From: a virus
Taxonomy: Duplodnaviria > Caudoviricetes
Virus record (IMG/VR): IMGVR_UViG_3300046804_003073
Span: 1 to 63,148 of that record
Length of the DNA: 63,148 nucleotides
Strand: one strand, 5' to 3'
Shown: piece after piece, positions 37,232 through 63,148 of the stretch
Layout: the number at the start of each line of letters is the position of its first letter
How positions within the stretch are numbered: the stretch's first letter is position 1
Position numbers and translations under genes: made by a program
Notes under the pieces: generated by a model
What the model was told of the DNA's origin: nothing
The model's input: the letters and a program-made list of their open reading frames with translations, nothing else
Database searches by the model: none

Positions 37232-37270
37232 CTCTTAACGTTAGAAAGTTTATCGTTCTAACGTTAGAAC
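37232..37270. repeat. Outlying pair of (C/T)TAACGTTAGA palindromes
   Basis: TTAACGTTAGA and TCTAACGTTAGA in the intergenic gap before the accessory region. Confidence 0.7.
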
Positions 37271-37490
37271 CCTTTCTCCTTCATTTTTCACAAAATTTCC
37301 CCGGCAACTCACAAATTACTTGCTCGCATCTTCCTTCGTTTCTCCGTATGATAGTGTTTCATTTGTGGAAGTAATACCGAAGCAAATCAGTCAGGTATTA
37401 TGTGTGCTATTGGCTCACGATTTATTGAGCCATTATCTTATTCATCACAACTGTTATGATACAAATAAGTCGCAGGAAAGGGGTTAGATT

Positions 37491-37871
37491 ATGAGTGACC
37501 TAGATAGAGCGTGTGACGAAATGGTTGGGAAAAGTGTTACCGTTGCCGGTGAGGATTACGGTCGCATTATGCGTTGGGTTAGAGTTGAGAACAACGATAA
37601 GACAATAAATGTGTTTGTCTTTTCATCTGGCCGGAAAGTTGAGGCTATGAGTTTGATTGATTATGTAAAGAACAAAGTGTATTATCCTTCCGGTATGAGT
37701 TCTGTTTATCGCCGGCGTAAGGCTAAGACAAAATCAACAGGTCGTCCTGTGTTTCCTACAAGCATTAGGAATACAGCGGTATTTAGCAGTAATGTTATGC
37801 CTCGACCTTTGCCTCACGAACAAGAACTAAACAATAAGCTCAAGAACAAGAAAGGCAGCAAGAATGTCTGA
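37491..37871 (+). CDS. Hypothetical protein
   Basis: GGAAAGGGG RBS; first gene of the accessory block. Confidence 0.6.
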   Translation: MSDLDRACDEMVGKSVTVAGEDYGRIMRWVRVENNDKTINVFVFSSGRKVEAMSLIDYVKNKVYYPSGMSSVYRRRKAKTKSTGRPVFPTSIRNTAVFSSNVMPRPLPHEQELNNKLKNKKGSKNV

Positions 37872-38412
37872 CGAATTAGGTTATGAAGTAATAGATGCCT
37901 CGCAAGTAGAGTTTGTGCGTGGTCGTCGCAATAAGTTGGGGAATGGTGATAACTTTATTCCTGCCCCTGTGTTTGGAATGAGTAATAGTGATCGTAAGGC
38001 TGAGTATCACTATTACAAAGCTCTTCAAACTTCTTGGAAGCGTAGGCATGGAGTTATGGAAACTCCTTACGATCATCTTATTGATCCCAGGTTTGAGAAA
38101 GAAGAAGAGTATGCTCGACTCTTTCCTGTGACTTTGACTGAGCTTCGCCTTATTGTTCAAGAAGAAGAGATGAAGAAGAATAAGCCCGTCGCTCAGGAAA
38201 CTCCTGTATGTGAGTCTTTGGTTGCTTGTGAATGTTGTGGTTTGGAAGTTGATGAAGATGATGCTGTTCAGTATGACATAGCATTATCTGTCTACTACAT
38301 TTGTTATGATTGCCATTATGATGACTATGTTATGTGTTCTGAATGCGAGTTGCCTTTCATTAATGATGAAGATGATCTTGAAATTTGTGAATCTTGTAGG
38401 GAGGATTTATGA
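37864..38412 (+). CDS. Hypothetical protein with C-terminal CxxC repeats
   Basis: N-terminal YEVIDASQVEFVRGRR matches the triplicated family; four CxxC pairs at the C-terminus. Confidence 0.6.
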   Translation: MSDELGYEVIDASQVEFVRGRRNKLGNGDNFIPAPVFGMSNSDRKAEYHYYKALQTSWKRRHGVMETPYDHLIDPRFEKEEEYARLFPVTLTELRLIVQEEEMKKNKPVAQETPVCESLVACECCGLEVDEDDAVQYDIALSVYYICYDCHYDDYVMCSECELPFINDEDDLEICESCREDL

Positions 38413-50961: not shown

Positions 50962-51034
50962 GGGCGTATAGCCCAATGGCAGAGGCAGAAGACTTAAAAT
51001 CTTTTCAGTATGGGTTCGAGTCCCATTACGCCCA
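50962..51034 (+). tRNA. tRNA-Leu(TAA), short variable arm
   Basis: Acceptor GGGCGTA/TACGCCC, anticodon loop CTTAAAA, T-arm ATGGG-TTCGAGT-CCCAT. Confidence 0.88.
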
Positions 51035-51066
51035 CTATTTATAAATAAACAAACAAGGAGAAACTG

Positions 51067-51564
51067 ATGGGTACATATATTTATATTCGTGGAACTCTTA
51101 CGATTAAGAAGAGTCAAATCGATGATGCTATGAAAGCTATCAAAGATTTGAATAATCATGATGAACTTAAGCGTGGTGGTTCAAAGACTGAAAAATGGTT
51201 TGCTTGGGTTCCTGAAGATTACGATCAGAAAGTGGAAACTCTTGAAGATGTATTCTCAATGGTCCTAGGTTTTGACATGAGCATTGATAATGAGAATGAT
51301 GATAAGATCACATATAGCTTTAATTATAGTGACAAATGGGGTCAGCATGAAGTATTTTTTGTTACACTTGCGCCATTCTGTGAGTCACTTGTTATTGATC
51401 ATCTTTGTGATGAACTTGAATATGAGCAACAGAAATGGACAATTGCTCTAAATCCAGAGACTAAGAAGGTTCATATTCTTGAACCGGTAATAACAATTAT
51501 TTATCCAGATATGGATGAATCAAATGAGATAACTGTTGATTCGTTTAGACCTATTAGCTATTGA
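51067..51564 (+). CDS. Hypothetical protein
   Basis: AAGGAG RBS. Confidence 0.6.
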   Translation: MGTYIYIRGTLTIKKSQIDDAMKAIKDLNNHDELKRGGSKTEKWFAWVPEDYDQKVETLEDVFSMVLGFDMSIDNENDDKITYSFNYSDKWGQHEVFFVTLAPFCESLVIDHLCDELEYEQQKWTIALNPETKKVHILEPVITIIYPDMDESNEITVDSFRPISY

Positions 51565-51571
51565 GGATAAC

Positions 51572-51757
51572 ATGAAAGATAATATCAGATTAATGCTAGT
51601 GGATGAGATTAAGATTCTTATTGCATCTGGGAAATTTTATGAATACAAAGATTTCTTAAAGCATTTGCATGTTTCAAAGAAATTTAATCTCAAAGGTCAT
51701 ATGATTTCAAATAGATATTTGTATGGAGCTCTCGTTAGGGAAGCAAAATCTATTTGA
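51572..51757 (+). CDS. Hypothetical protein
   Basis: GAGGA RBS. Confidence 0.45.
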   Translation: MKDNIRLMLVDEIKILIASGKFYEYKDFLKHLHVSKKFNLKGHMISNRYLYGALVREAKSI

Positions 51758-51769
51758 TTCATAGATTAA

Positions 51770-51841
51770 GCCCCTGTCGTCTACTGGTTAGGACAACACT
51801 CTTATAAAGTGTTTAAGGTGGTTCAATTCCACCCAGGGGTA
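51770..51841 (+). tRNA. tRNA-Ile(TAT)
   Basis: Acceptor GCCCCTG/CAGGGGT, anticodon arm ACACT-CTTATAA-AGTGT, T-arm GGTGG-TTCAATT-CCACC. Confidence 0.85.
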
Positions 51842-52007
51842 CTCATTATATTAGAGATGATATAATGGTTAAATGTAATTTTGGGAGGTGGTTGTTATAG
51901 ATATACCTTATTAGTAAAGCGATTTGTTTGTAGGCAATTTCGTTTTGCTACTGAAAATGCGATGCCGAAAACGGTTTTCGTTTAGACACACATCTGAAGG
52001 AGCAAAT

Positions 52008-52595
52008 ATGAAAATTTTAACTTTAATTGTTGCGCTAAGTGTTGGAGCGCTAATAGCAGGACCAGTTGTTGTATCTCAAACTACTGATGATATAGCAACT
52101 ATTAGTCCAATCAGTCTTACGGCTGATAGGCATTTAAATGAAGTAATTAATGAAACAACTACACAGCCTCCGCTTCCTGATATTGATTGGGTAGCATTTG
52201 ATCTTTTCTTGAAAGAAGCAAAGATGAAAGAGGATATTGCTAAGTATGGCGATTGTGGTCAATGGCACGATTTAGCAATTTCTGTTGGCTGGCCTGAAAG
52301 TGAATGGGATACTTTGTCCTATGTTATTCATAGAGAAAGTCGGTGTAATGTGGATAGTCACAACAAAACTGATCCTATGAGTGGTAGCCGGGGATTAATG
52401 CAAATTAATGGCTACTGGTGCAGACCCAGCCAATGGTCTAAGAATGGCTGGCTACAAGATAGAGGCATTCTTAATGTATGCGACGATCTATTTAGTCCTG
52501 AAATTAATCTGCGTGCCGGCTTAGAAATATGGCAATACGGAGAAGAAAAGCATGGTTGTGGTTGGCGAGGTCCATGGGCAACTAAATGCAAATAA
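52008..52595 (+). CDS. Secreted lytic transglycosylase (SLT/lysozyme-like)
   Basis: N-terminal signal peptide; 'IHRESRC', 'SRGLMQIN..W', 'P.INL.A', 'GW..PW'; AAGGAG RBS. Confidence 0.8.
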   Translation: MKILTLIVALSVGALIAGPVVVSQTTDDIATISPISLTADRHLNEVINETTTQPPLPDIDWVAFDLFLKEAKMKEDIAKYGDCGQWHDLAISVGWPESEWDTLSYVIHRESRCNVDSHNKTDPMSGSRGLMQINGYWCRPSQWSKNGWLQDRGILNVCDDLFSPEINLRAGLEIWQYGEEKHGCGWRGPWATKCK

Positions 52596-52604
52596 TTTAA
52601 AGGT

Positions 52605-52748
52605 TTGAGATAGACTAGCCCCTTACCTTTCGGGGTGAAGGAAATTCTGCAAGTATATTAATGGGTTACTTCGTGTCAGGTTATTATACTTGTTAAGTCC
52701 AATGGTCATAGCACATTTGTGTTGGTTAAGGATTTCCGTCTATCTCAA
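52605..52748 (+). ncRNA. Candidate structured RNA
   Basis: Closing stem TTGAGATAGAC/GTCTATCTCAA plus nested stems. Confidence 0.45.
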
Positions 52749-52751
52749 TTA

Positions 52752-52823
52752 GACTCAGTAGCTCAATGGTAGAGCAGTAGACTTTTAATCTATTGGTTGT
52801 AGGTTCAAATCCTACCTGAGTCA
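52752..52823 (+). tRNA. tRNA-Lys(TTT)
   Basis: Acceptor GACTCAG/CTGAGTC, loop CTTTTAA, GGTTCAAATCC. Confidence 0.92.
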
Positions 52824-52999
52824 CAGAGATGGAATACATTAGTAGAAAGGAAACCTCCGAGAGCAAACCATAATGGAGTATTCTGTCTCTAGTTTTTGTT
52901 CATGGAGCAAGAATGAACTGTATAATCTTCATTCGGGAATATTGGGCAACTCCTGCCGTAAAACAAACAACCTGAGTATGTTGTAAAACTACTCATTAT

Positions 53000-53072
<73 letters not shown>

Positions 53073-53074
53073 CT

Positions 53075-57969: not shown

Positions 57970-58963
57970 CAATCCGGGCGGAAAAGAAATAATATGATAT
58001 ATATATACTCAGAATCTCATAGAATAGATATTCAGGAAGAATCTCTGATTAAGAAGAGAATACGTCTGTAAAAGATGGATACGTCTACAAGAATACCTGA
58101 TAAGAAAGCCCATACGTCTGTAAACAAGGCTTAACGAACGCTCAATAAAGGCTTGTTTTTATTAAAAAGATGGGTGTTCTTAGCAATAATTGCTTGTAAA
58201 GTGCAAATAATTAACGAAAACTAGATAAAAATATACCCTGGGTGTTTCTATCTACCTCTATATATACAATACACTGGATAGAAAGGTAACTCCTTAGCCG
58301 GCCGGTATACATTGGATATACTTTCAAGCCGGCGAGGGGGTTACCCTCAGGATTAGAAACGATAGTAGCTCCACATAAAGGTATGAAGGTATTAGCATTA
58401 ATATTCTTATTTATAGCCGGCAAGATATTGTCTGAATTTTAGTGCGTCTATTTAGACGGTATATTCGGATATTACATGGATGTAATTTCGGTCTATGTAT
58501 GGGTCAATAAAACTCTTTGCCGGCTGAAAATAACTGGATATATCTCAGGTATAGAGAGGGGTATAGCATCGTCTATACCCCCAGGGATTGAGCACGATAA
58601 GGATTAACATTAGGATAAATGTAATCCAAAAGCTCTCCCATAAAGCTTCCTAAGGATTTGGATTAGGATTTGTATTAAAATTTTGATTTGTATGTCTAAC
58701 GTTAGAACGGGTGCTCTAACGTTAGAATATCTAACGTTAGAGCACCCGCCCCCCTCTAACGTTAGAAATTCCTCATGCTATCTCTAACGTTAGCCGGCCG
58801 GCTAATAGCTCAAAGCTCGACTCAAAGTTTCATGTAATTCAAGAATAATTTCACGAAATACAGCAGGAAATTAGCACCATTTTTTGTTTGTGCTATTGTG
58901 GATTTCGTGGACGAGGCTATTCACACAAATCCACAGTCAATTCACAACACAAAAGGAAACACA

Positions 58964-59266
58964 ATGGCACAGAATCAAAAGGGAGAAAATCCCACAGAAT
59001 TTGAGGTCGTCAATGCTGACGACATTCAGTTCGTCAAAAGGGGACGCAAGTCCAACGCCAATCCCGCACTCATTGAGGCACTCAAAGGTCTCAAAAAGGG
59101 TCAGGCTTTGGTTGTCTCAAACATGAAAGCTGATCCAAAGTCTGAGAATTACGGAACTGAAAAGTCCCGCATTTCCTCACAAATTCGGACAGCCTGTCGT
59201 CAGGCAAATCTCACCGGTTTCCGAATCCTTTGGACACCGACAGGCGTTCCGCAAGTCGTCGCCTAA
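58964..59266 (+). CDS. Small basic protein, paralog 1 of 3
   Basis: Extended -10 TGCTATTGT, AAAGGA RBS; EFEVVNADDIQFVKRGRK...FRILWTPTGVPQVV. Confidence 0.85.
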   Translation: MAQNQKGENPTEFEVVNADDIQFVKRGRKSNANPALIEALKGLKKGQALVVSNMKADPKSENYGTEKSRISSQIRTACRQANLTGFRILWTPTGVPQVVA

Positions 59267-59295
59267 TTCCAAATCCAAAGCCTCGTTCTAAGATT

Positions 59296-59326
59296 AACCT
59301 CGACAGAAATGTCGAGGTTTTTCTTT
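59296..59326 (+). terminator. Rho-independent terminator
   Basis: AACCTCGACA-GAAA-TGTCGAGGTT followed by TTTCTTT. Confidence 0.85.
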
Positions 59327-59615
59327 GCCTATTACTCCTAACGTTAGGCCGGCATAAAGGTTCTAACGTTAGGATTAGAAATTAGATTAGCTAACATAAA
59401 GCTCATAAAGTTAGGAATTGAGTATTAAATTTATCAAGTAATCCTCTAACGTTAGTGCGGGTGTAACGTTAGAGCAATTTCTAACGTTACACCCGCCGAA
59501 CCCTCTAACGTTAGACATAAAGGTGAAACTCTAACGTTAGAGATCGACTCCATTTCTAACGTTAGAATGTCTCTAACATTAGTGGTCTCTAACGTTAGCA
59601 GCCCCGGGCAAGAGA

Positions 59616-59645
59616 GAGGGCGGGCGACTTGCGCCGCCCGCCCTC
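59616..59645 (-). terminator. Terminator-like hairpin after paralog 2
   Basis: GAGGGCGGGCG/CGCCCGCCCTC stem. Confidence 0.6.
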
Positions 59646-59659
59646 GACCCCTGCGCCGA

Positions 59660-59959
59660 TCAGACGACGACCTGCGGGACTCCGGTCGGGGTCCACAGGA
59701 TACGGAACCCTGCGAGACCTGCCGCCTTGCACGCGGTACGGATCTGTGACGAGATCCGACTCTTGTCCGTTGCGTAGGTCTCCGCCTTCGGATCCTGCGC
59801 CATGCCTCGCAGGACGAGCGCGTTGCCCTTCGTGAGTTTGGCGAGAGCCTTCACGAGTTCGGGATCGGCGTTCGCCTTGCGTCCGCGACGGACGAACTGC
59901 ACAGACTCGGCGGATACGATCTCAAACTCACCCGCCTTCTTGTCCTTGTCTTCTGCCAT
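59660..59959 (-). CDS. Small basic protein, paralog 2 of 3
   Basis: TGCTAGTGT -10, GGAAGGG RBS; same motifs as paralog 1. Confidence 0.85.
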   Translation of the reverse strand: MAEDKDKKAGEFEIVSAESVQFVRRGRKANADPELVKALAKLTKGNALVLRGMAQDPKAETYATDKSRISSQIRTACKAAGLAGFRILWTPTGVPQVVV

Positions 59960-60311
59960 TCTGAACCCTTCCTGTGTTCTTCGGGATCCTCTCCCGATGA
60001 GAAGAACACTAGCAGTTTCTCTACCTTCTCCCAACTAGAAATCAGGATTTCTTTCAACGTTAGAGGATTTCTTTTCAACGTTAGAACTGGGTCGAAGCCG
60101 GCCTGTAACGTTAGGTAGCTACATAAAGGCCGGCTAACGTTAGAAAATTGATTGACAATACATAAAGGTATCTAACGTTAGAAAATACATTAAAGATTTC
60201 ATCACGAATCTCTAACGTTAGCACGGGCGTAACGTTAGAGGAGTTTCTAACGTTACGCCCGTCCAGCGCTCTAACGTTAGAGTGTTCTAACGTTAGATAG
60301 TCCCACCGAAA

Positions 60312-60343
60312 CAAGCCCGACGCTAACGATAGCGTCGGGCTTG
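60312..60343 (-). terminator. Terminator-like hairpin after paralog 3
   Basis: CAAGCCCGACGCTA-ACGA-TAGCGTCGGGCTTG. Confidence 0.65.
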
Positions 60344-60368
60344 CTCGCCGGTCTTTGCGCTAGGGGGA

Positions 60369-60650
60369 TTAGCGAACGACCTGCGGAACTCCGGTGGGTG
60401 TCCAGAGGATTCGGAAGTCAGCGATTCCTGCTGACTTACACGCTGTCCGAATCTGGGAAGAGATTCGGGACTTGTCGGTGGCGTATGTGTCCGACTTGGG
60501 ATTCTGTGCCAGACTCTTCAATACCAGAGCCTGACCCTTGCCCAACTTGCCAAGCGCACCGACCAGTTCGGGATTCACGCTTGCTTTGCGACCACGACGA
60601 ACGAACTGAATGTCCGACGCGCTCACCACCTCATACTCTTTGTCTGCCAT
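60369..60650 (-). CDS. Small basic protein, paralog 3 of 3
   Basis: TGCTAGTGT -10, GAAAGGG RBS; same motifs as paralog 1. Confidence 0.85.
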   Translation of the reverse strand: MADKEYEVVSASDIQFVRRGRKASVNPELVGALGKLGKGQALVLKSLAQNPKSDTYATDKSRISSQIRTACKSAGIADFRILWTPTGVPQVVR

Positions 60651-61045
60651 TGTGACCCTTTCTAGGTTCTGTCGGCTCCTCACCGACACCTAAGACACTA
60701 GCACCTAGAAACGCTATCCTAACTACAAATAGGGGTTTCTTCCAACGTTAGAGAAAAACTTTGAAACGTTAGAAGCTCCCATAAAGGCATCCCTATCGTT
60801 AGAAAATCCACTAAACTCCTGAACTTTCCTAACGTTAGGCCCGCCGGTGTTCTAACGTTGAGCGTCAACGTTAGAACACCGGCGCTAACGTTAGAGGATC
60901 CAAAAGGACGAACCCCGGAACGCTATGGTGGGGGTGCGCTCCGGGGTTCTAACGATACGGGCTGGAAAGGGTCAGTCCTATCGCTGACCACAATGATACC
61001 ACACGAAAGAAGGTCAGGGGTTAGAAAGCCCCTGACCTGCTAACG

Positions 61046-61303
61046 CTAGGCGAAAAGTTCGTTCCAACACTTCTGGCAGTATCCCGTCATGAAACGCTCA
61101 CGCTGATCTGCCGAAAGAAACGGGAAAGCCTGCTGAATGAGTGCGCCTGCTTCATACGCCTTGATCGCGCTGATCGGCAGGGCGAAGTAAGCAGACTGCT
61201 TACAGGTCGGGCAAGCGCGACTGGCACACGCTGAATGTGTGCTTCCTAGTCTGCCTGCTTCCTGTATTGCTTCTTTCGGGTCGGTGTATTCCTTGTACTT
61301 CAT
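61046..61303 (-). CDS. Small zinc-binding phage protein
   Basis: 'CPTC...LIQQAFPFLSADQRE..MTGYC..CW'; GAAAGGGG RBS; hairpin at 61011-61038 downstream. Confidence 0.75.
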   Translation of the reverse strand: MKYKEYTDPKEAIQEAGRLGSTHSACASRACPTCKQSAYFALPISAIKAYEAGALIQQAFPFLSADQRERFMTGYCQKCWNELFA

Positions 61304-61583
61304 GATTACCCCTTTCAGTAGGTAAGGACATACTAGCACCTAGTAGGTCAAAAAATAGCCGATAAATAGAATTTCCTCTATCGTTATAAAGTTTTTCTTT
61401 ATCGTTAGAAAACCTACTAAATCTGCCGGCCAACCTAACGTTAGAAGCGCAGGCGTTCTAACATTAACAATTTAATGTTAGAACGCCTGCCTAACGTTAG
61501 AGAATCCTGGCGGGTTCTAACGTTACAGTCTCTAACGAAAGAAAAGGCGGGGATCTCTCGACCCCCGCCCTAACTTTAGGACT

Positions 61584-61907
61584 TCAGTCCTGCTCGCCGG
61601 TCTCTCCGAACATCATGTTCATCACGCCTGCGTGGAGCGCGTCACTCATCGTGATCTCGTTGTCGTTGTCCACGATACGCGCGACCTCTTTCGCCAGCGG
61701 TTCGTCAATAACCAACACAACGCGGAGAAACTTCATGATTCCTTCGGTTTCCAACGCTTCGGTCGCCAAGATGACCTTCTCGTCGTCAGCGAACACTTCG
61801 CGCAAGGCGCGCATCGCTGAGATGACCAGATCGGCGCTGTGCGCCCACATCGCGGAGAGATGTGCGCTCCGCTGTGCGTCCTTCTCCTCGTAGTTCTCCA
61901 TGACCAT
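61584..61907 (-). CDS. Hypothetical protein (cassette gene)
   Basis: TGCTAGTCT -10, GAAAGGG RBS, terminator at ~61541-61570. Confidence 0.7.
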   Translation of the reverse strand: MVMENYEEKDAQRSAHLSAMWAHSADLVISAMRALREVFADDEKVILATEALETEGIMKFLRVVLVIDEPLAKEVARIVDNDNEITMSDALHAGVMNMMFGETGEQD

Positions 61908-62202
61908 TCCCTTTCGTTAGAGGGTTCCCCATGAACCCATGACTTCAGACTAGCACTTTCCATTTCATTTCTGACTAGAAATAAAGATTATTTCTATCGT
62001 TATAAAGTTTTTTTGAAACGTTAGAACTCTACATAAAGTTGTCATCTATTGTTAGAAGCTCACTCAAATCGCTGGATGTTCTAACGTTAGGCCGACCGGT
62101 GTTCTAACGTTAGCGAGAAAACGTTAGAACACCGGCGCTTCTAACGTTAGGATTCGGGTTACGAGAGAGGGGAACCCTTGCGGATTCCCCTCTAACGCTA
62201 GG

Positions 62203-62394
62203 TCAGCGATTCTGGAAGTAGTTCGTGACTAACTCGCGGGCGTGACGCGCACCCTCACCCTCACCGTCGCCCAGCACGACGAGGAACAGAATCATTCCCC
62301 TATCGTTAGTCGGGACACTCTCCAACAGGGACTGAATACGAATCGCACCCTGATAGTCGTATCCGAACTCTCGTATTGCCTTTGACGATTCCAT
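62203..62394 (-). CDS. Hypothetical protein (cassette gene)
   Basis: GAAAGG RBS; hairpin at ~62166-62193 downstream. Confidence 0.65.
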   Translation of the reverse strand: MESSKAIREFGYDYQGAIRIQSLLESVPTNDRGMILFLVVLGDGEGEGARHARELVTNYFQNR

Positions 62395-62649
62395 CGTTAG
62401 AACCTTACCTTTCCTCGGTGACCTTCACCGATACCTTCACGGTACTACATAGTCTAAGGGTGAGTCTAGCCTTTTCCTCCAACGTTAGAAAAAAGTTTTG
62501 AACGTTAGAAAGCTCCCATAAAGATTATCTTTATCGTTAGAAGTCTACTAAACATCACACACAGTCTAACGTTAGAAGAACTGGCGCTCTAACGTTAAGC
62601 AGCAAACGTTAGAGCGCCAGCGCTAACGTTAGAAATCTGGGGAGAGAAA

Positions 62650-62675
62650 AGCGAACCCTAACGATAGGGTTCGCT
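62650..62675 (-). terminator. Rho-independent terminator
   Basis: AGCGAACCCTA-ACGA-TAGGGTTCGCT with a T-run on the minus strand. Confidence 0.7.
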
Positions 62676-62681
62676 CAACTC

Positions 62682-62831
62682 TTATTCGGGGAAATACTGG
62701 TCAAAGTCGTAGTACCAGTTCATCACCATCTGGTCTAACCATAGGAACAGGGCTGCACCACCGACGATGACGGTTGTCCAAAAGACGAACCTAACGATAG
62801 TGCGGATTTGGTAATAGCGACGAGTCCTCAT
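62682..62831 (-). CDS. Small membrane protein (49 aa)
   Basis: MRTRRYYQIRTIVRFVFWTTVIVGGAALFLWLDQ...; below the ORF-track cutoff. Confidence 0.6.
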   Translation of the reverse strand: MRTRRYYQIRTIVRFVFWTTVIVGGAALFLWLDQMVMNWYYDFDQYFPE

Positions 62832-62832
62832 C

Positions 62833-62961
62833 TCATCTCGCCTTCACAATTCGGAGTTTGCTCATTCCCCAGAGGTCACGAACATTCTCTACATACTTCT
62901 GGCACGACTTCCAGTCGCCCTGATGAACGACCATGCCATCGGGTCTGATTACCTGAAACAT
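62833..62961 (-). CDS. Small hypothetical protein (42 aa)
   Basis: MFQVIRPDGMVVHQGDWKSCQKY...; GGAAAGGA RBS; TTGACT-16-TAGACT promoter. Confidence 0.6.
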   Translation of the reverse strand: MFQVIRPDGMVVHQGDWKSCQKYVENVRDLWGMSKLRIVKAR

Positions 62962-63148
62962 TAGAGTGTCCTTTCCGTAGTGACCATCACCACTACTGAG
63001 AGTCTAGTAAATCCACCAGCTAAGTCAAGCATTTATTTTTCAACGTTAGAAGCTTTCCATAAAGGCTTTATCTATCGTTAGAACCTCACTAAACTCCGAC
63101 TATCCGCTAACGTTAGACCCGCTGGCGTTCAAACGTTAGGCTGCTAAC

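What the first reader, a model, noticed from the sequence alone, without database searches (positions are those of the whole stretch)
58695..63148. Periodic gene-cassette array delimited by clusters of the palindrome CTAACGTTAG (best candidate for a novel system)
Seen: at least seven units of roughly 480-770 bp. Each has the order palindrome cluster, promoter, 5' hairpin, purine-rich RBS, one or two tiny genes, terminator, next palindrome cluster. I count about 47 AACGTT cores plus about 15 one-base variants (CTATCGTTAG, CTAACGATAG, CTAACATTAG, CTAACGCTAG) in 4.45 kb, almost all intergenic. Elsewhere I noticed the full motif only near 37.2 kb. Inference, three options: (a) a modular early-gene array shuffled by recombination at the repeats, conceptually like integron cassettes or T4-superfamily PeSL modules; (b) a high-density protein-binding lattice (parS/stoperator-like); (c) part of a long terminal repeat injected first. 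No recombinase is visible in this window.
Basis: partly seen in the sequence, partly recalled or inferred. Interest (0 to 1): 0.9.

Follow-up and report, generated by a model that had tools for sequence, protein, structure and literature searches.

The report
Early-gene cassette array with palindrome lattice
One end of this uncultured freshwater phage genome is a row of tiny self-contained genes, each preceded by the same block of repeated palindromes and a long hairpin, which probably lets the phage switch its first-expressed genes together and swap them between relatives.

Summary
CTAACGTTAG occurs 28 times in the window against 0.02 expected. All 47 AACGTT cores of the region are intergenic. 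The window is a whole 63-kb virus record, a lytic-looking phage of an actinobacterium (two WhiB genes, no integrase).

Seven of the eight array genes lie on the minus strand. Each unit has a terminator, a roughly 230-bp module and then small gene(s). The module holds 3-10 AACGTT cores and usually a 17-20-bp inverted repeat whose arms covary. It ends in a probable host-type promoter (not mapped), a 5'-UTR hairpin and a ribosome-binding site.

Array genes have GC3 of 0.50-0.80 against 0.19-0.39 elsewhere. They avoid the four codons read by the phage's own tRNAs, so they are probably immediate-early genes.

Two long relatives and 40 metagenome loci carry such arrays. All were fetched through one conserved small protein family ("P"). 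The repeated motif differs between lineages (CTAACGTTAG, GTAATATTAC, TGTAACTTTA, TGTGACAnnTGTCACA).

Between relatives, whole cassettes come and go, with breakpoints inside the modules. No site-specific recombinase was found, and read depth gives no sign of a terminal repeat.

Best reading: a PeSL-like early ORFan array whose modules carry a dense operator lattice for an unidentified lineage-specific DNA-binding protein. I call it a new variant of known kinds.

The parts
58696..58793 (+). Site cluster upstream of g1: five exact CTAACGTTAG copies. Two of them form the arms of an inverted repeat (about 58707-58748).
58964..59266 (+). g1, the junction copy of the P family (100 aa). It converges on the rest of the array. 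GC3 is 0.50.
59296..59319 (+). Terminator-like hairpin after g1 (-20.2 kcal/mol).
59338..59598 (.). Site cluster in the convergent gap between g1 and g2: 9 AACGTT cores, with an inverted repeat at about 59459-59495.
59600..59655 (-). Terminator-like hairpin after g2 (-41.2 kcal/mol, z -4.8).
59660..59959 (-). g2, P family (99 aa), GC3 0.76.
59960..60368 (-). Inter-cassette module upstream of g2. It holds the g3 terminator (60296-60350), 10 AACGTT cores, a long inverted repeat (60205-60270, -36.2 kcal/mol), CTTTATG boxes, a TAGTGT putative -10 element and a 5'-UTR hairpin.
60369..60650 (-). g3, P family (93 aa).
60651..61045 (-). Module upstream of g3: the g4 terminator (60995-61045), 6 cores and a long inverted repeat at 60841-60885 (-36.5 kcal/mol, z -8.6).
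61046..61303 (-). g4 (85 aa, Cys-rich). Its C-terminus matches phrog_20898, of unknown function. It is cassette family 'B', also present in G001 and L054.
61304..61583 (-). Module upstream of g4: the g5 terminator (61535-61583) and an inverted repeat at 61447-61492. Here the core in both arms is AACATT/AATGTT, a compensated change.
61584..61907 (-). g5 (107 aa), no family, GC3 0.80.
61908..62202 (-). Module upstream of g5: the g6 terminator (62155-62202) and an inverted repeat at 62093-62138.
62203..62394 (-). g6 (63 aa). It is cassette family 'F', also present in L075.
62395..62681 (-). Module upstream of g6: the g7 terminator (62640-62681) and an inverted repeat at 62578-62623.
62682..62961 (-). 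g8 (62833-62961, 42 aa) and g7 (62682-62831, 49 aa, hydrophobic), two genes in one cassette. G001 has a g7-like gene in the same arrangement.
62962..63148 (-). Module upstream of g8, cut by the contig end. It contains the only sigma-70-consensus hit of the region (TTGACT-16-TAGACT, 63028-63001).
37235..37267 (+). The only sites outside the array: TTAACGTTAG and CTAACGTTAG, 23 bp apart. They lie upstream of a conserved operon. The position is conserved in G001 (29039) and in four other viral contigs.
37491..38412 (+). Operon downstream of the remote sites: a 126-aa protein and a 182-aa Cys-rich protein. The first 22 residues of the 182-aa protein resemble the P N-terminus.
50962..53073 (+). Four phage tRNA genes: Leu-UAA, Ile-UAU, Lys-UUU and Arg-UCU. 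Array genes avoid the codons they read.

Best explanation
The region is the immediate-early ORFan region of a lytic siphovirus-like phage of a freshwater actinobacterium. It is built as a head-to-tail row of autonomous transcription units on the minus strand.

Each unit starts with a roughly 230-bp regulatory module. In order, the module carries:
- the terminator of the previous gene;
- a CTAACGTTAG site;
- a 17-20-bp perfect inverted repeat containing two more sites;
- another site;
- a TTTAGT box;
- a CTAACGATAG variant;
- a CTTTATG box;
- two half-degenerate sites.

Then follow a host-type promoter (TTGAC-17-TAGnnT, or an extended -10 TGnTAGnnT), a 5'-UTR hairpin, a Shine-Dalgarno sequence and one or two very small genes.

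Shown here: the anatomy, its conservation, the covariation of the hairpin arms, the lineage-specific motif types, the cassette-level indels with breakpoints in the modules, and the codon-usage split.

Inferred:
(1) The genes are expressed first, by the host polymerase and the host tRNA pool.
(2) The palindromes are operators for a dimeric, lineage-specific DNA-binding protein. By covering 3-10 sites upstream of every promoter, it switches the whole array and one remote operon together.
(3) The always-present P protein is one candidate for that binder. It sits in 2-3 copies at the downstream end of every array. This is unproven.
(4) Because the modules are repeated, homologous recombination between them deletes, duplicates and exchanges cassettes, as PeSLs do in T4-type phages. 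The phage has RecA and a RuvC-like resolvase.
For: Reality and specificity. 28 motif copies against 0.02 expected. 0 of 47 cores lie in genes.

Not a chimera. G001 is collinear with the window at 64-82% identity across the junction and shows the same GC jump. One X1 contig spans 58138-62637.

Host and lifestyle. Two WhiB genes occur in each of the three records, and only the Corynebacterium control matched that family. The window also encodes RecA, RuvC/Pox_A22 and a holin. No integrase or resolvase was found.

Unit anatomy. See the alignments (71 modules). Seven terminator hairpins and five long inverted repeats fold with z-scores of -4.8 to -10.6.

Hairpin symmetry is selected. On 31 inverted repeats, 97.7% of cells pair against 90.6% in shuffles, and 8 of 19 pairs carry double changes. 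One pair shows CG 10, GC 9, AU 6, UA 6 and none unpaired. One search shows the same pattern on 71 distinct hairpins, 58 of which could be oriented.

Early expression. GC3 is 0.50-0.80 in the 8 array genes against 0.19-0.39 in 5 main-body genes. The phage carries tRNAs for TTA, ATA, AAA and AGA. These codons make up 24, 30, 59 and 56% of their families in 26 main-body genes, but 4, 6, 24 and 7% in the array genes.

A protein-DNA code.
- All 40 metagenome loci fetched with P carry repeat arrays.
- 25 loci have CTAACGTTAG as the commonest palindromic 10-mer and 11 have GTAATATTAC.
- Four loci have neither, and three loci (L079, L080, L091) are rich in the asymmetric TGTAACTTTA.
- In L088 and L089 neither palindrome is enriched. 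L089, the one read in detail, carries TGTGACAnnTGTCACA.
- The CTTTATG box and the module plan persist across types.
- The same motif precedes one conserved operon in the window, in G001 and in 4 further contigs.

Shuffling. L055 and G001 differ by three cassette-level indels, with a roughly 150-bp module as the overlap at each breakpoint. Cassette A is followed by a different recognised cassette in each of 5 loci. Contigs of the 95-99%-identical populations X3 and X4 leave the window's sequence inside modules.
Against: No transcription data exist. No RNA run holds the region.

The consensus promoter scan found 1 site in the region against 4.2 in shuffles. The promoter assignment therefore rests on my alignment and on recalled actinobacterial -10 rules.

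All sites lie upstream of the putative -35 element. That position fits activators or DNA wrapping better than a simple repressor.

No binding protein was identified. P has no Pfam family and no solved-structure or fold match.

The P proteins of the GTAATATTAC and TGTGACA types are nearly the same in the putative helix although the motifs differ. This argues against P as the specificity determinant, unless the shared half-site TGTAAT is what P reads.

Motif type and P both follow phage phylogeny, so their correlation is confounded. All loci were fetched through P, so the link between P and arrays is partly by construction.

The inverted repeats were preselected for at least 7 of 9 complementary outer positions. 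This inflates the percentage paired, though not the pair-type swaps.

The GC shift could instead reflect a mutational or gene-conversion bias.
Confidence: 0.55

Rival explanations
1. Integron-like platform. The palindromes and the structure-conserved inverted repeat are attC-like recombination sites at which a site-specific recombinase excises and inserts cassettes.
For: The inverted repeat keeps its structure while its arm sequence varies, as I recall for attC sites. CTAAC|GTTAG reads like an inverse core joined to a core of the integron consensus (RYYYAAC / GTTRRRY, recalled, not tested). Cassettes are gained and lost one at a time.
Against: No tyrosine (PF00589) or serine (PF00239) recombinase was found in G000, G001 or the complete G002, while the controls matched in 14 of 14 and 12 of 14 genomes. 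Every cassette has its own promoter-like region and terminator, unlike the promoterless cassettes of integrons. The breakpoints are about 150 bp of shared module rather than a defined crossover point. There are 3-10 cores per module, not one.
Confidence: 0.07
2. Terminal repeat or first-injected DNA. The array is part of a long direct terminal repeat, as in T5 or SPO1-type phages. The repeats would serve injection arrest, packaging or end protection.
For: In the window and in G001 the array lies at a contig end. I recall that small early genes in terminal repeats are known from T5 and SPO1-like phages. The nearest cultured polymerase relatives are Streptomyces BE-cluster phages, which I recall as having long terminal repeats.
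Against: Contig depth over the array is 160 and 158, against 145.6 for the adjoining body, so it is not doubled. This is contig-level depth and is only a rough measure. In G002 (CheckV 100%, no end repeats) all 32 sites lie at 82.5-90.3 kb of 105.7 kb, with ordinary genes on both sides. Contigs probably end in arrays because repeats break assemblies: 32 of the 40 metagenome loci are held as whole contigs of at most about 10 kb.
Confidence: 0.08
3. Decoy or sponge. The dense sites titrate a host protein (a transcription factor, a nucleoid protein, or a defence or restriction component that recognises TAACGTTA) rather than binding a phage regulator.
For: The site density is very high, up to 62 copies in 19 kb. 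The sites lie outside the core promoter. AACGTT is scarce in the rest of the genome: 2 observed against 6.3 expected by a Markov model and 19 by base composition.
Against: Four different motif types occur in related phages from similar freshwater samples. The fixed order and the conserved degenerate variants of the sites within each module look like graded operators. The same motif sits in front of one ordinary operon. ACGT is depleted in the main body in general (37 observed against 77.6 expected), so the AACGTT depletion is not specific.
Confidence: 0.1
4. Replication origin iterons. The palindromes are binding sites of a replication initiator.
For: In unrelated viral contigs the very same 10-mer is repeated inside replisome-organizer-like genes (L008, L010, L031, L035, L044).
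Against: Here the sites are spread over at least 4.5 kb (8 kb in G001 and G002), in one block before each of many genes. They sit far from the replication genes at 12-25 kb, and they also occur at a remote promoter region.
Confidence: 0.04
5. Assembly chimera or recently acquired foreign DNA, which would explain the jump from 36% to 50% GC.
For: GC rises abruptly at 59 kb. The array genes have no homologues in 50,697 GenBank phage records.
Against: The same junction and GC jump occur in the independently assembled G001 and G002. An X1 contig bridges 58138-62637. The P paralogues g1, g2 and g3 differ in GC3 (0.50, 0.76, 0.62) although they are 64-74% identical in protein. The motif also occurs at 37.2 kb in the low-GC body.
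Confidence: 0.02

Closest known systems
PeSLs (promoter-early stem-loops) of T4-type phages (Arbiol et al. 2010, PMC2839356: abstract and section 13 read; Comeau et al. 2014, PMC4122927: search listing only)
   Same: Both are repeated composite intergenic elements that combine an early promoter with a stem-loop terminator. Both are placed before small ORFans in a variable region. In both, indels between close relatives have their breakpoints in the elements, which gives modular shuffling.
   Different: Here the module is about 230 bp. It adds 3-10 copies of a 10-bp palindrome and a separate 17-20-bp inverted repeat with covarying arms. The repeated motif changes between lineages. The array is one contiguous block of at least 4.5-8 kb, transcribed against the rest of the genome, in an actinophage, with a distinct codon usage and a conserved P-gene end. 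Promoter and terminator activity and mini-circles were shown for PeSLs but are not shown here.
Stoperators of Cluster A mycobacteriophages (PMC9283540: abstract from the search listing; PMC6550527: listing only)
   Same: Many copies of a short site for one phage-encoded DNA-binding protein that controls transcription at many places. I recall that the site sequence varies between related actinophages.
   Different: According to the title and abstract of PMC9283540, stoperators are asymmetric, bound by a monomeric immunity repressor, and distributed across the phage genome, in phages I recall as temperate. Here the sites are perfect palindromes, clustered 3-10 per intergenic module in one region of a phage that has no integrase. 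No repressor gene is identified.
17-bp dyad-symmetry repeats of Cluster O mycobacteriophages (PMC4351075: passages read)
   Same: More than 30 copies of a dyad-symmetric repeat in a non-temperate actinophage. They are densest among the leftward-transcribed small genes at one genome end. The authors predict binding by a dimeric protein. The function is unknown.
   Different: [quoted passage not shown] Here the sites are in ordered clusters before every cassette promoter, none of the 47 cores is coding, and the modules are the indel breakpoints.
Integron cassette arrays
   Same: A row of small one-gene cassettes, each bounded by an inverted repeat that is conserved in structure and variable in sequence. 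Cassettes are gained and lost one at a time.
   Different: No integrase was found. The cassettes have their own promoter-like regions and terminators. Each boundary carries many sites. The breakpoints are extended homology, not a point.
Conserved inverted repeats (CIRs) at the early promoters of Streptomyces phage phiC31 (recalled; search found no paper on them in the library)
   Same: As I recall, an actinophage early region with many similar promoters, each associated with a palindromic operator for one phage repressor.
   Different: As I recall, there are about 18 single 17-bp sites, in a temperate phage with a known repressor gene. There is no cassette architecture and no hairpin module.

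Membership tests
PeSL-type regulatory cassettes (T4-type phages) | Repeated intergenic composite of an early host-type promoter plus a stem-loop terminator | tested here: inconclusive
   Stem-loops with T-rich tails are present after 7 of 7 gene ends examined. The promoter is only inferred: TTGAC-17-TAGnnT in a subset of modules and TGnTAGnnT in others. The sigma-70 scan found 1 site against 4.2 in shuffles. No expression data exist.
PeSL-type regulatory cassettes (T4-type phages) | Sits before ORFans in a hypervariable region, and indels between relatives have breakpoints in the elements | tested here: met
   Of the 27 proteins scanned from the arrays and their immediate flanks in the window, G001 and G002, only a 2OG-Fe(II) oxygenase and a DNA endonuclease V family gave a function. 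Two further PHROG families of unknown function also matched. L055 and G001 differ by three cassette indels with the module as overlap. Cassette A has a different next neighbour in each of 5 loci.
PeSL-type regulatory cassettes (T4-type phages) | Sequence homology to T4-type PeSLs, in a T4-like myovirus | tested here: not met
   The phage has a tape-measure protein, a DnaE-like polymerase and WhiB genes. The module consensus is built around CTAACGTTAG, which is not part of the PeSL description in PMC2839356 section 13. The likeness is in function, not in descent.
Integron | IntI-type tyrosine recombinase encoded with the array | tested here: not met
   PF00589 matched 0 of 3 records, including the 100%-complete G002, while controls matched 14 of 14. 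PF00239 also matched 0 of 3.
Integron | Promoterless cassettes bounded by one attC each | tested here: not met
   Each cassette has its own conserved promoter-like region, 5'-UTR hairpin and terminator. Each boundary carries 3-10 AACGTT cores.
Stoperator / immunity-repressor system | Asymmetric sites, oriented with transcription and spread over the genome, with a repressor gene in a temperate phage | tested here: not met
   The sites are perfect palindromes. 27 of 28 lie in the last 4.5 kb of the window. No integrase was found. No repressor gene was recognised among 69 main-body ORFs, apart from one MerR-like HTH in the replication module.
Long terminal repeat carrying early genes (T5 / SPO1 type) | The same sequence at both genome ends, hence about double read depth | tested here: not met
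   Contig depth is 160 and 158 over the array against 145.6 beside it (contig-level only). All three records are classed as having no end repeats. The array is internal in G002. Raw-read terminus analysis was not possible.
Cluster O-type dyad repeats | Single dyad-symmetric sites scattered genome-wide, mostly not at promoters | tested here: not met
   Here the sites are clustered and ordered in modules upstream of each cassette gene, and all lie in the array apart from one pair.
P protein family (unnamed; 129 cluster representatives) | About 90-150 aa with an N-terminal FE(I/V)(I/V)...(K/R)RGRK motif, a central helix ...S(Q/A)IR(T/S)A..., and a C-terminal W..G(V/I)PQV | tested here: met
   g1, g2 and g3 align with relatives from G001, G002 and 76 cluster representatives from the search. 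R25, G26, R27, G45, R74 and P95 are invariant or nearly so.

The most novel reading that the evidence does not exclude
The arrays are a phage-borne gene-exchange platform with its own compatibility code. Between its flanking sites, the perfect inverted repeat with covarying arms extrudes as a cruciform or folds in single strands. This gives a preferred cut and exchange point for the phage's RuvC-like resolvase and RecA, so that co-infecting relatives trade early ORFan cassettes. The lineage-specific repeated motifs, together with a cognate protein (possibly P), restrict regulation, and perhaps exchange, to phages of the same type. The result would be an integrase-free counterpart of an integron for anti-host genes.
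Probability: 0.12. Interest if true: 0.85.

Novelty: new variant of a known kind. Interest (0 to 1): 0.6.

Why it matters
Early genes are where phages keep their host-takeover and anti-defence functions, and most of them are ORFans.

This architecture is widespread in freshwater metagenomes. 40 loci came from one scan, 14 DNA runs in 11 studies hold at least part of the region, and the P family has 129 clusters at 50% identity. It marks such genes by simple sequence rules, so it could be used to harvest early genes of uncultured actinophages.

It also offers a natural set of orthogonal operator types attached to one module design. It gives a clear case in which codon usage separates genes translated before and after the phage's own tRNAs arrive. 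And it provides a second, independent example, outside T4-type phages, of repeated regulatory modules acting as the breakpoints of gene shuffling.

If a cognate binding protein is found, the system would be a compact many-promoter switch for actinobacterial synthetic biology.

Tried and rejected
Function of the array proteins.
- The eight array proteins gave nothing above noise in Pfam and PHROGs, except the g4 C-terminus against phrog_20898, of unknown function.
- P family: no Pfam family in 85 members, only four single weak hits.
- The AF2 model has pLDDT 76.8.
- Foldseek against PDB gave no match at E <= 0.001.
- BFVD gave only an uncharacterised homologue.
- The PDB sequence profile search gave nothing better than E = 0.81.
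- The ESM Atlas returned only hypothetical viral clusters.
- tblastn against 50,697 phage records found no match.
- P0078, a hit to the RGRK motif, is a repeat protein of IQAVQRGRK units that I recognise (from recall) as IQ-like. I rejected it as spurious.
- The P homodimer job returned 'no answer'. It is neither evidence for nor against binding.

Expression. No RNA holder was listed for the region. Rfam matched only the four tRNAs.

Promoters. The sigma-70 and terminator consensus scan gave 1 promoter and 3 terminators, no more than shuffles. The terminators were then examined by folding.

RNA or DNA hairpin. G:T against A:C mismatches on the sense strand number 26 against 10, but 17 of the G:T cases are at one edge position. 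This is not decisive.

Site spacing. No clear helical periodicity; spacings of 14-29 bp are commonest.

AACGTT depletion outside the array. It is mild and not specific, because ACGT is depleted in general.

Population joints from contigs. X5 shows a joint that skips 59498-60265, which is the g2 cassette. Only 31 letters lie on one side and the likeness is 90-95%, which is too weak to count.

Literature.
- The exact motif appears only in unrelated papers (7 titles and abstracts seen), none on phages.
- A search on actinobacteriophage, intergenic, palindromic repeat and promoter found nothing like this among the 15 papers listed.
- The phiC31 CIR papers are not in the library.
- Supplements were not consulted.

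Full report
1. What the window is.
The window is an entire IMG/VR virus record of 63,148 bp. It is classed as linear and CheckV rates it 61% complete. Its large genes include a tape-measure protein, tail proteins, a DnaB-like helicase, a primase, a DnaE-like polymerase and a DNA methyltransferase. The nearest cultured polymerase relatives are Streptomyces BE-cluster phages at 38% identity. Pfam scans of 69 further ORFs found two WhiB-like factors, a MerR-like HTH, RecA, a RuvC/Pox_A22-like resolvase, an HNH endonuclease, glycosyltransferases and a holin. WhiB genes occur twice in each of the three related records, and among 14 control genomes only Corynebacterium matched that family. I conclude that this is a phage of an actinobacterium. 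No tyrosine or serine recombinase is present in it or in two relatives, one of them rated complete. It is therefore probably lytic. The 14 runs that hold at least part of the region are 13 freshwater and one drinking-water metagenome, from 11 studies.

2. The observation.
CTAACGTTAG occurs 28 times against 0.02 expected. 27 copies lie in 58696-63116. There are 47 AACGTT cores and 21 one-mismatch 10-mers in the region. None of the 47 cores lies in a gene, although genes fill 44% of the region. The only other copies are a pair 23 bp apart at 37235 and 37258. GC content rises from 0.29-0.44 to 0.48-0.52 at 59 kb.

g1 (58964-59266) is on the plus strand. g2-g8 are on the minus strand and converge on g1. 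Start-to-start unit lengths are 487-691 bp.

3. Anatomy of a unit (minus strand).
After each stop codon comes a GC-rich hairpin with a T-rich tail. Seven were folded, at -20 to -41 kcal/mol. Next come a CTAACGTTAG site and then a perfect inverted repeat of 17-20 bp whose arms each contain TTCTAACGTT. Five were folded, at -30 to -36.5 kcal/mol with z-scores of -7 to -10.6. Another site follows.

After that the order is: a TTTAGT box; the variant TCTAACGATAG; a CTTTATG box; TCTAACGTTTCAAAA; and TCTAACG(T/A)T.. . About 35-45 nt further on lies TAGnnT, often preceded by TG. In a subset of 71 aligned modules a TTGAC lies 16-17 bp upstream of that hexamer. The unit ends with a short hairpin in the 5' leader, a GGAAAGG-type ribosome-binding site and the gene.

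The promoter is my inference. The simple sigma-70 scan found only one site in the region.

4. The long inverted repeat is selected for symmetry, not for sequence.
In 26 sources I found 71 distinct hairpins, 58 of which could be oriented. Their outer arms vary while staying complementary. On 31 of them the pair-count tool gives 97.7% paired cells against 90.6% in shuffles (0 of 500 shuffles as high). Versions with the partner slid by 1-3 columns give 26-44%. 8 of 19 pairs carry changes on both sides. One pair shows CG 10, GC 9, AU 6, UA 6 and no unpaired case.

The repeats were preselected for at least 7 of 9 complementary outer positions, so the percentage paired is inflated. The swaps between pair types are not affected. 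Symmetry with a free sequence points to base pairing, either as an RNA or DNA hairpin or as a cruciform, rather than to a protein reading those positions. Whether the strand that matters is RNA could not be settled.

5. Relatives.
G001 (90,921 bp, 87% complete) is collinear with the window at 64-82% identity. It has 32 sites in its first 8.5 kb, one site at the position equivalent to 37.2 kb, and the same GC rise to 0.55. This rules out an assembly chimera, and so does an X1 contig spanning 58138-62637.

The three paralogous genes g1-g3 define a small protein family I call P. A profile search of 1.84 billion cluster representatives found 129 members, all about 47-150 aa except two long proteins of 867 and 2251 aa; the 867-aa one I rejected as spurious and the 2251-aa one I did not examine. 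No function is attached to the family.

Through P I found G002 (105,669 bp, rated 100% complete). Its array lies at 82.5-90.3 kb and is internal. It uses a different palindrome, GTAAYATTAC. All 32 forward-strand copies lie in the array.

A metagenome scan gave 40 further loci. CTAACGTTAG is the commonest palindromic 10-mer in 25 of them, with 4-62 copies. GTAATATTAC is the commonest in 11, with 3-20 copies. Four loci have neither. Three loci (L079, L080, L091) are rich in the asymmetric TGTAACTTTA. L088 and L089 share other enriched words and neither palindrome; L089, read in detail, carries TGTGACAnnTGTCACA together with direct repeats of TGTAATTCATAA. The CTTTATG and TTTAGT boxes, the long hairpins and the overall plan persist across types.

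In all three long records the array ends with two P cassettes and then a convergent junction copy of P.

6. Cassette turnover.
The window, read from the contig end towards the junction, carries g8+g7, g6, g5, g4, P, P and the junction P. Read the same way, from the outer end inwards, the recognised cassettes of G001 are a 66-aa gene, A, B (g4-like), G, C, D, P, a 94-aa gene, P and the junction P. Beyond the 66-aa gene lie copies of a further paralogous family.

L055 and G001 are 79-90% identical. L055 lacks B+G, has one extra cassette, and lacks the 94-aa cassette. At each breakpoint the stretch that aligns to both sides is the roughly 150-bp module. Cassette A is followed by a different recognised cassette in each of the five loci that hold it. 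Cassettes without a canonical box are missed by that script, so 'next' there means next recognised.

Contigs of two 95-99%-identical populations (X3, X4) leave the window's sequence inside modules at 60280, 61998 and 62150. The relative order of shared cassettes is kept, so the changes look like gains and losses, not inversions. Of the 27 proteins scanned from the arrays and their immediate flanks, only a 2OG-Fe(II) oxygenase and a DNA endonuclease V family gave a function.

7. Why the GC jump? Probably early expression.
Array genes have GC3 of 0.50-0.80 against 0.19-0.39 in five main-body genes. The phage carries four tRNA genes, Leu-UAA, Ile-UAU, Lys-UUU and Arg-UCU. G001 has the same four. 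Their codons TTA, ATA, AAA and AGA supply 24, 30, 59 and 56% of their families in 26 main-body genes. In the eight array genes they supply only 4, 6, 24 and 7%.

The P paralogues differ in GC3 although the family is known only from such viral contigs. Import from a GC-rich donor is therefore an unlikely cause. The simplest reading is that array genes must be translated by the host's tRNA pool before the phage tRNAs are made, which makes them immediate-early genes. A regional mutation or gene-conversion bias is not excluded.

8. What the palindromes do.
Five points suggest operators of a dimeric, lineage-specific DNA-binding protein that controls all cassette promoters together:
- The site is a perfect 10-bp palindrome.
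- It is present 3-10 times (AACGTT cores) before every cassette.
- It appears in a fixed order, with conserved degenerate variants nearest the promoter.
- It changes between lineages while the module design stays.
- It is repeated before one conserved operon elsewhere in the genome: window 37.2 kb, G001 29039, the contigs L018, L020, L026 and L028, and a degenerate form in G002.

The sites lie upstream of the putative -35 element, so activation, wrapping or silencing by spreading are all possible.

P is a candidate binder. It is always present, occurs in 2-3 copies, is basic by its sequence, and has an invariant RGR(K) motif. The 182-aa protein of the site-bearing operon shares its N-terminal 22 residues (hhalign probability 67%).

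This is weak. P has no recognisable DNA-binding fold. The P proteins of the GTAATATTAC and TGTGACA types are almost the same in the central helix, which fits only if the shared half-site TGTAAT is what is read. The correlation between motif type and P is also confounded by descent.

The same 10-mer is used quite differently elsewhere. In unrelated contigs it forms iterons inside replisome-organizer-like genes, and it flanks -35/-10 regions next to a small gene that I take (from recall) to encode a ribbon-helix-helix protein.

9. Rivals.
- An integron-like mechanism lacks a recombinase.
- A terminal repeat is not supported by depth (160 and 158 against 145.6) or by the internal position of the array in G002. 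Arrays sit at contig ends because repeats break assemblies.
- A decoy for a host protein and a replication origin are possible but fit the ordered, promoter-linked, type-variable design less well.

10. Comparison and novelty.
In function the array is closest to the PeSL regulatory cassettes of T4-type phages. Those are early promoter plus stem-loop elements, placed before ORFans, that act as recombination breakpoints (PMC2839356, abstract and section 13). In having many copies of a site it recalls stoperators (PMC9283540, abstract from the search listing) and the Cluster O dyad repeats, whose function is unknown (PMC4351075, passages).

It is not a member of any of these by descent or by their defining features (see the membership table). 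Five features appear to be new:
- the combination of a dense, ordered palindrome lattice with a structure-conserved inverted repeat in every module;
- the switch of motif type between lineages;
- the conserved P end;
- the codon-usage partition;
- the occurrence in uncultured freshwater actinophages.

I found no description of it in print with the searches. Supplements and subscription journals were not covered. I rate it a new variant of a known kind, with interest 0.6.

Noticed in passing
window, genome-wide (for example 18616, 18636, 58297, 58328, 58793-58802, 60097, 60129): The GC-rich palindrome GCCGGC occurs 33 times in this 36%-GC genome, against 2.1 expected (0 of 100 shuffles reach it). 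It appears both in genes and between them. I have no explanation. It could be a methylation or recognition site.
   Followed up: partly
window 50962-53073: All four phage tRNAs read A-ending codons (TTA, ATA, AAA, AGA). These are common in the main body and rare in the array. G001 carries the same set.
   Followed up: yes
window 58040-58130: Three direct copies of about 13 bp (ATACGTCT..AAA), followed by several GCCGGC-bearing hairpins in 58290-58600. They lie between the last plus-strand gene and the array. Seen by eye.
   Followed up: no
L008, L010, L031, L035, L044 (unrelated viral contigs): The same 10-mer CTAACGTTAG is repeated 2-4 times (22-bp or 12-bp spacing) inside genes whose N-termini I take (from recall, no family scan) to be replisome-organizer-like. 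These are probably origin iterons.
   Followed up: partly
L033 and L036 (high-GC viral contigs): Pairs of CTAACGTTAG sites flank -35/-10-like sequences (site...site-ATGTATAAT) before successive small genes, next to a small gene that I take (from recall, no family scan) to encode a ribbon-helix-helix protein. This looks like an ordinary operator use of the same palindrome.
   Followed up: no
G002 / L051 4700-12650: The palindrome of this lineage, GTAATATTAC, contains TAATATTAC, the origin nonanucleotide of geminiviruses as I recall it. With dozens of palindromic copies in a double-stranded DNA phage, this is most likely a coincidence.
   Followed up: no
L045 17-244, 706-1161(-), 2059-2448(-); L051 4049-4585, 5635-6045: A second set of paralogous cassette proteins sits at the far (upstream) end of the arrays. 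In G001 some copies are on the opposite strand, each with its own module.
   Followed up: partly
window 37320-37487: The 55-aa ORF between the remote sites and the operon is conserved at the peptide level in distant contigs (PYDSV.FVEVIP). It overlaps a TATGATAGTGT sequence, so it may be a conserved promoter or leader rather than a gene.
   Followed up: no
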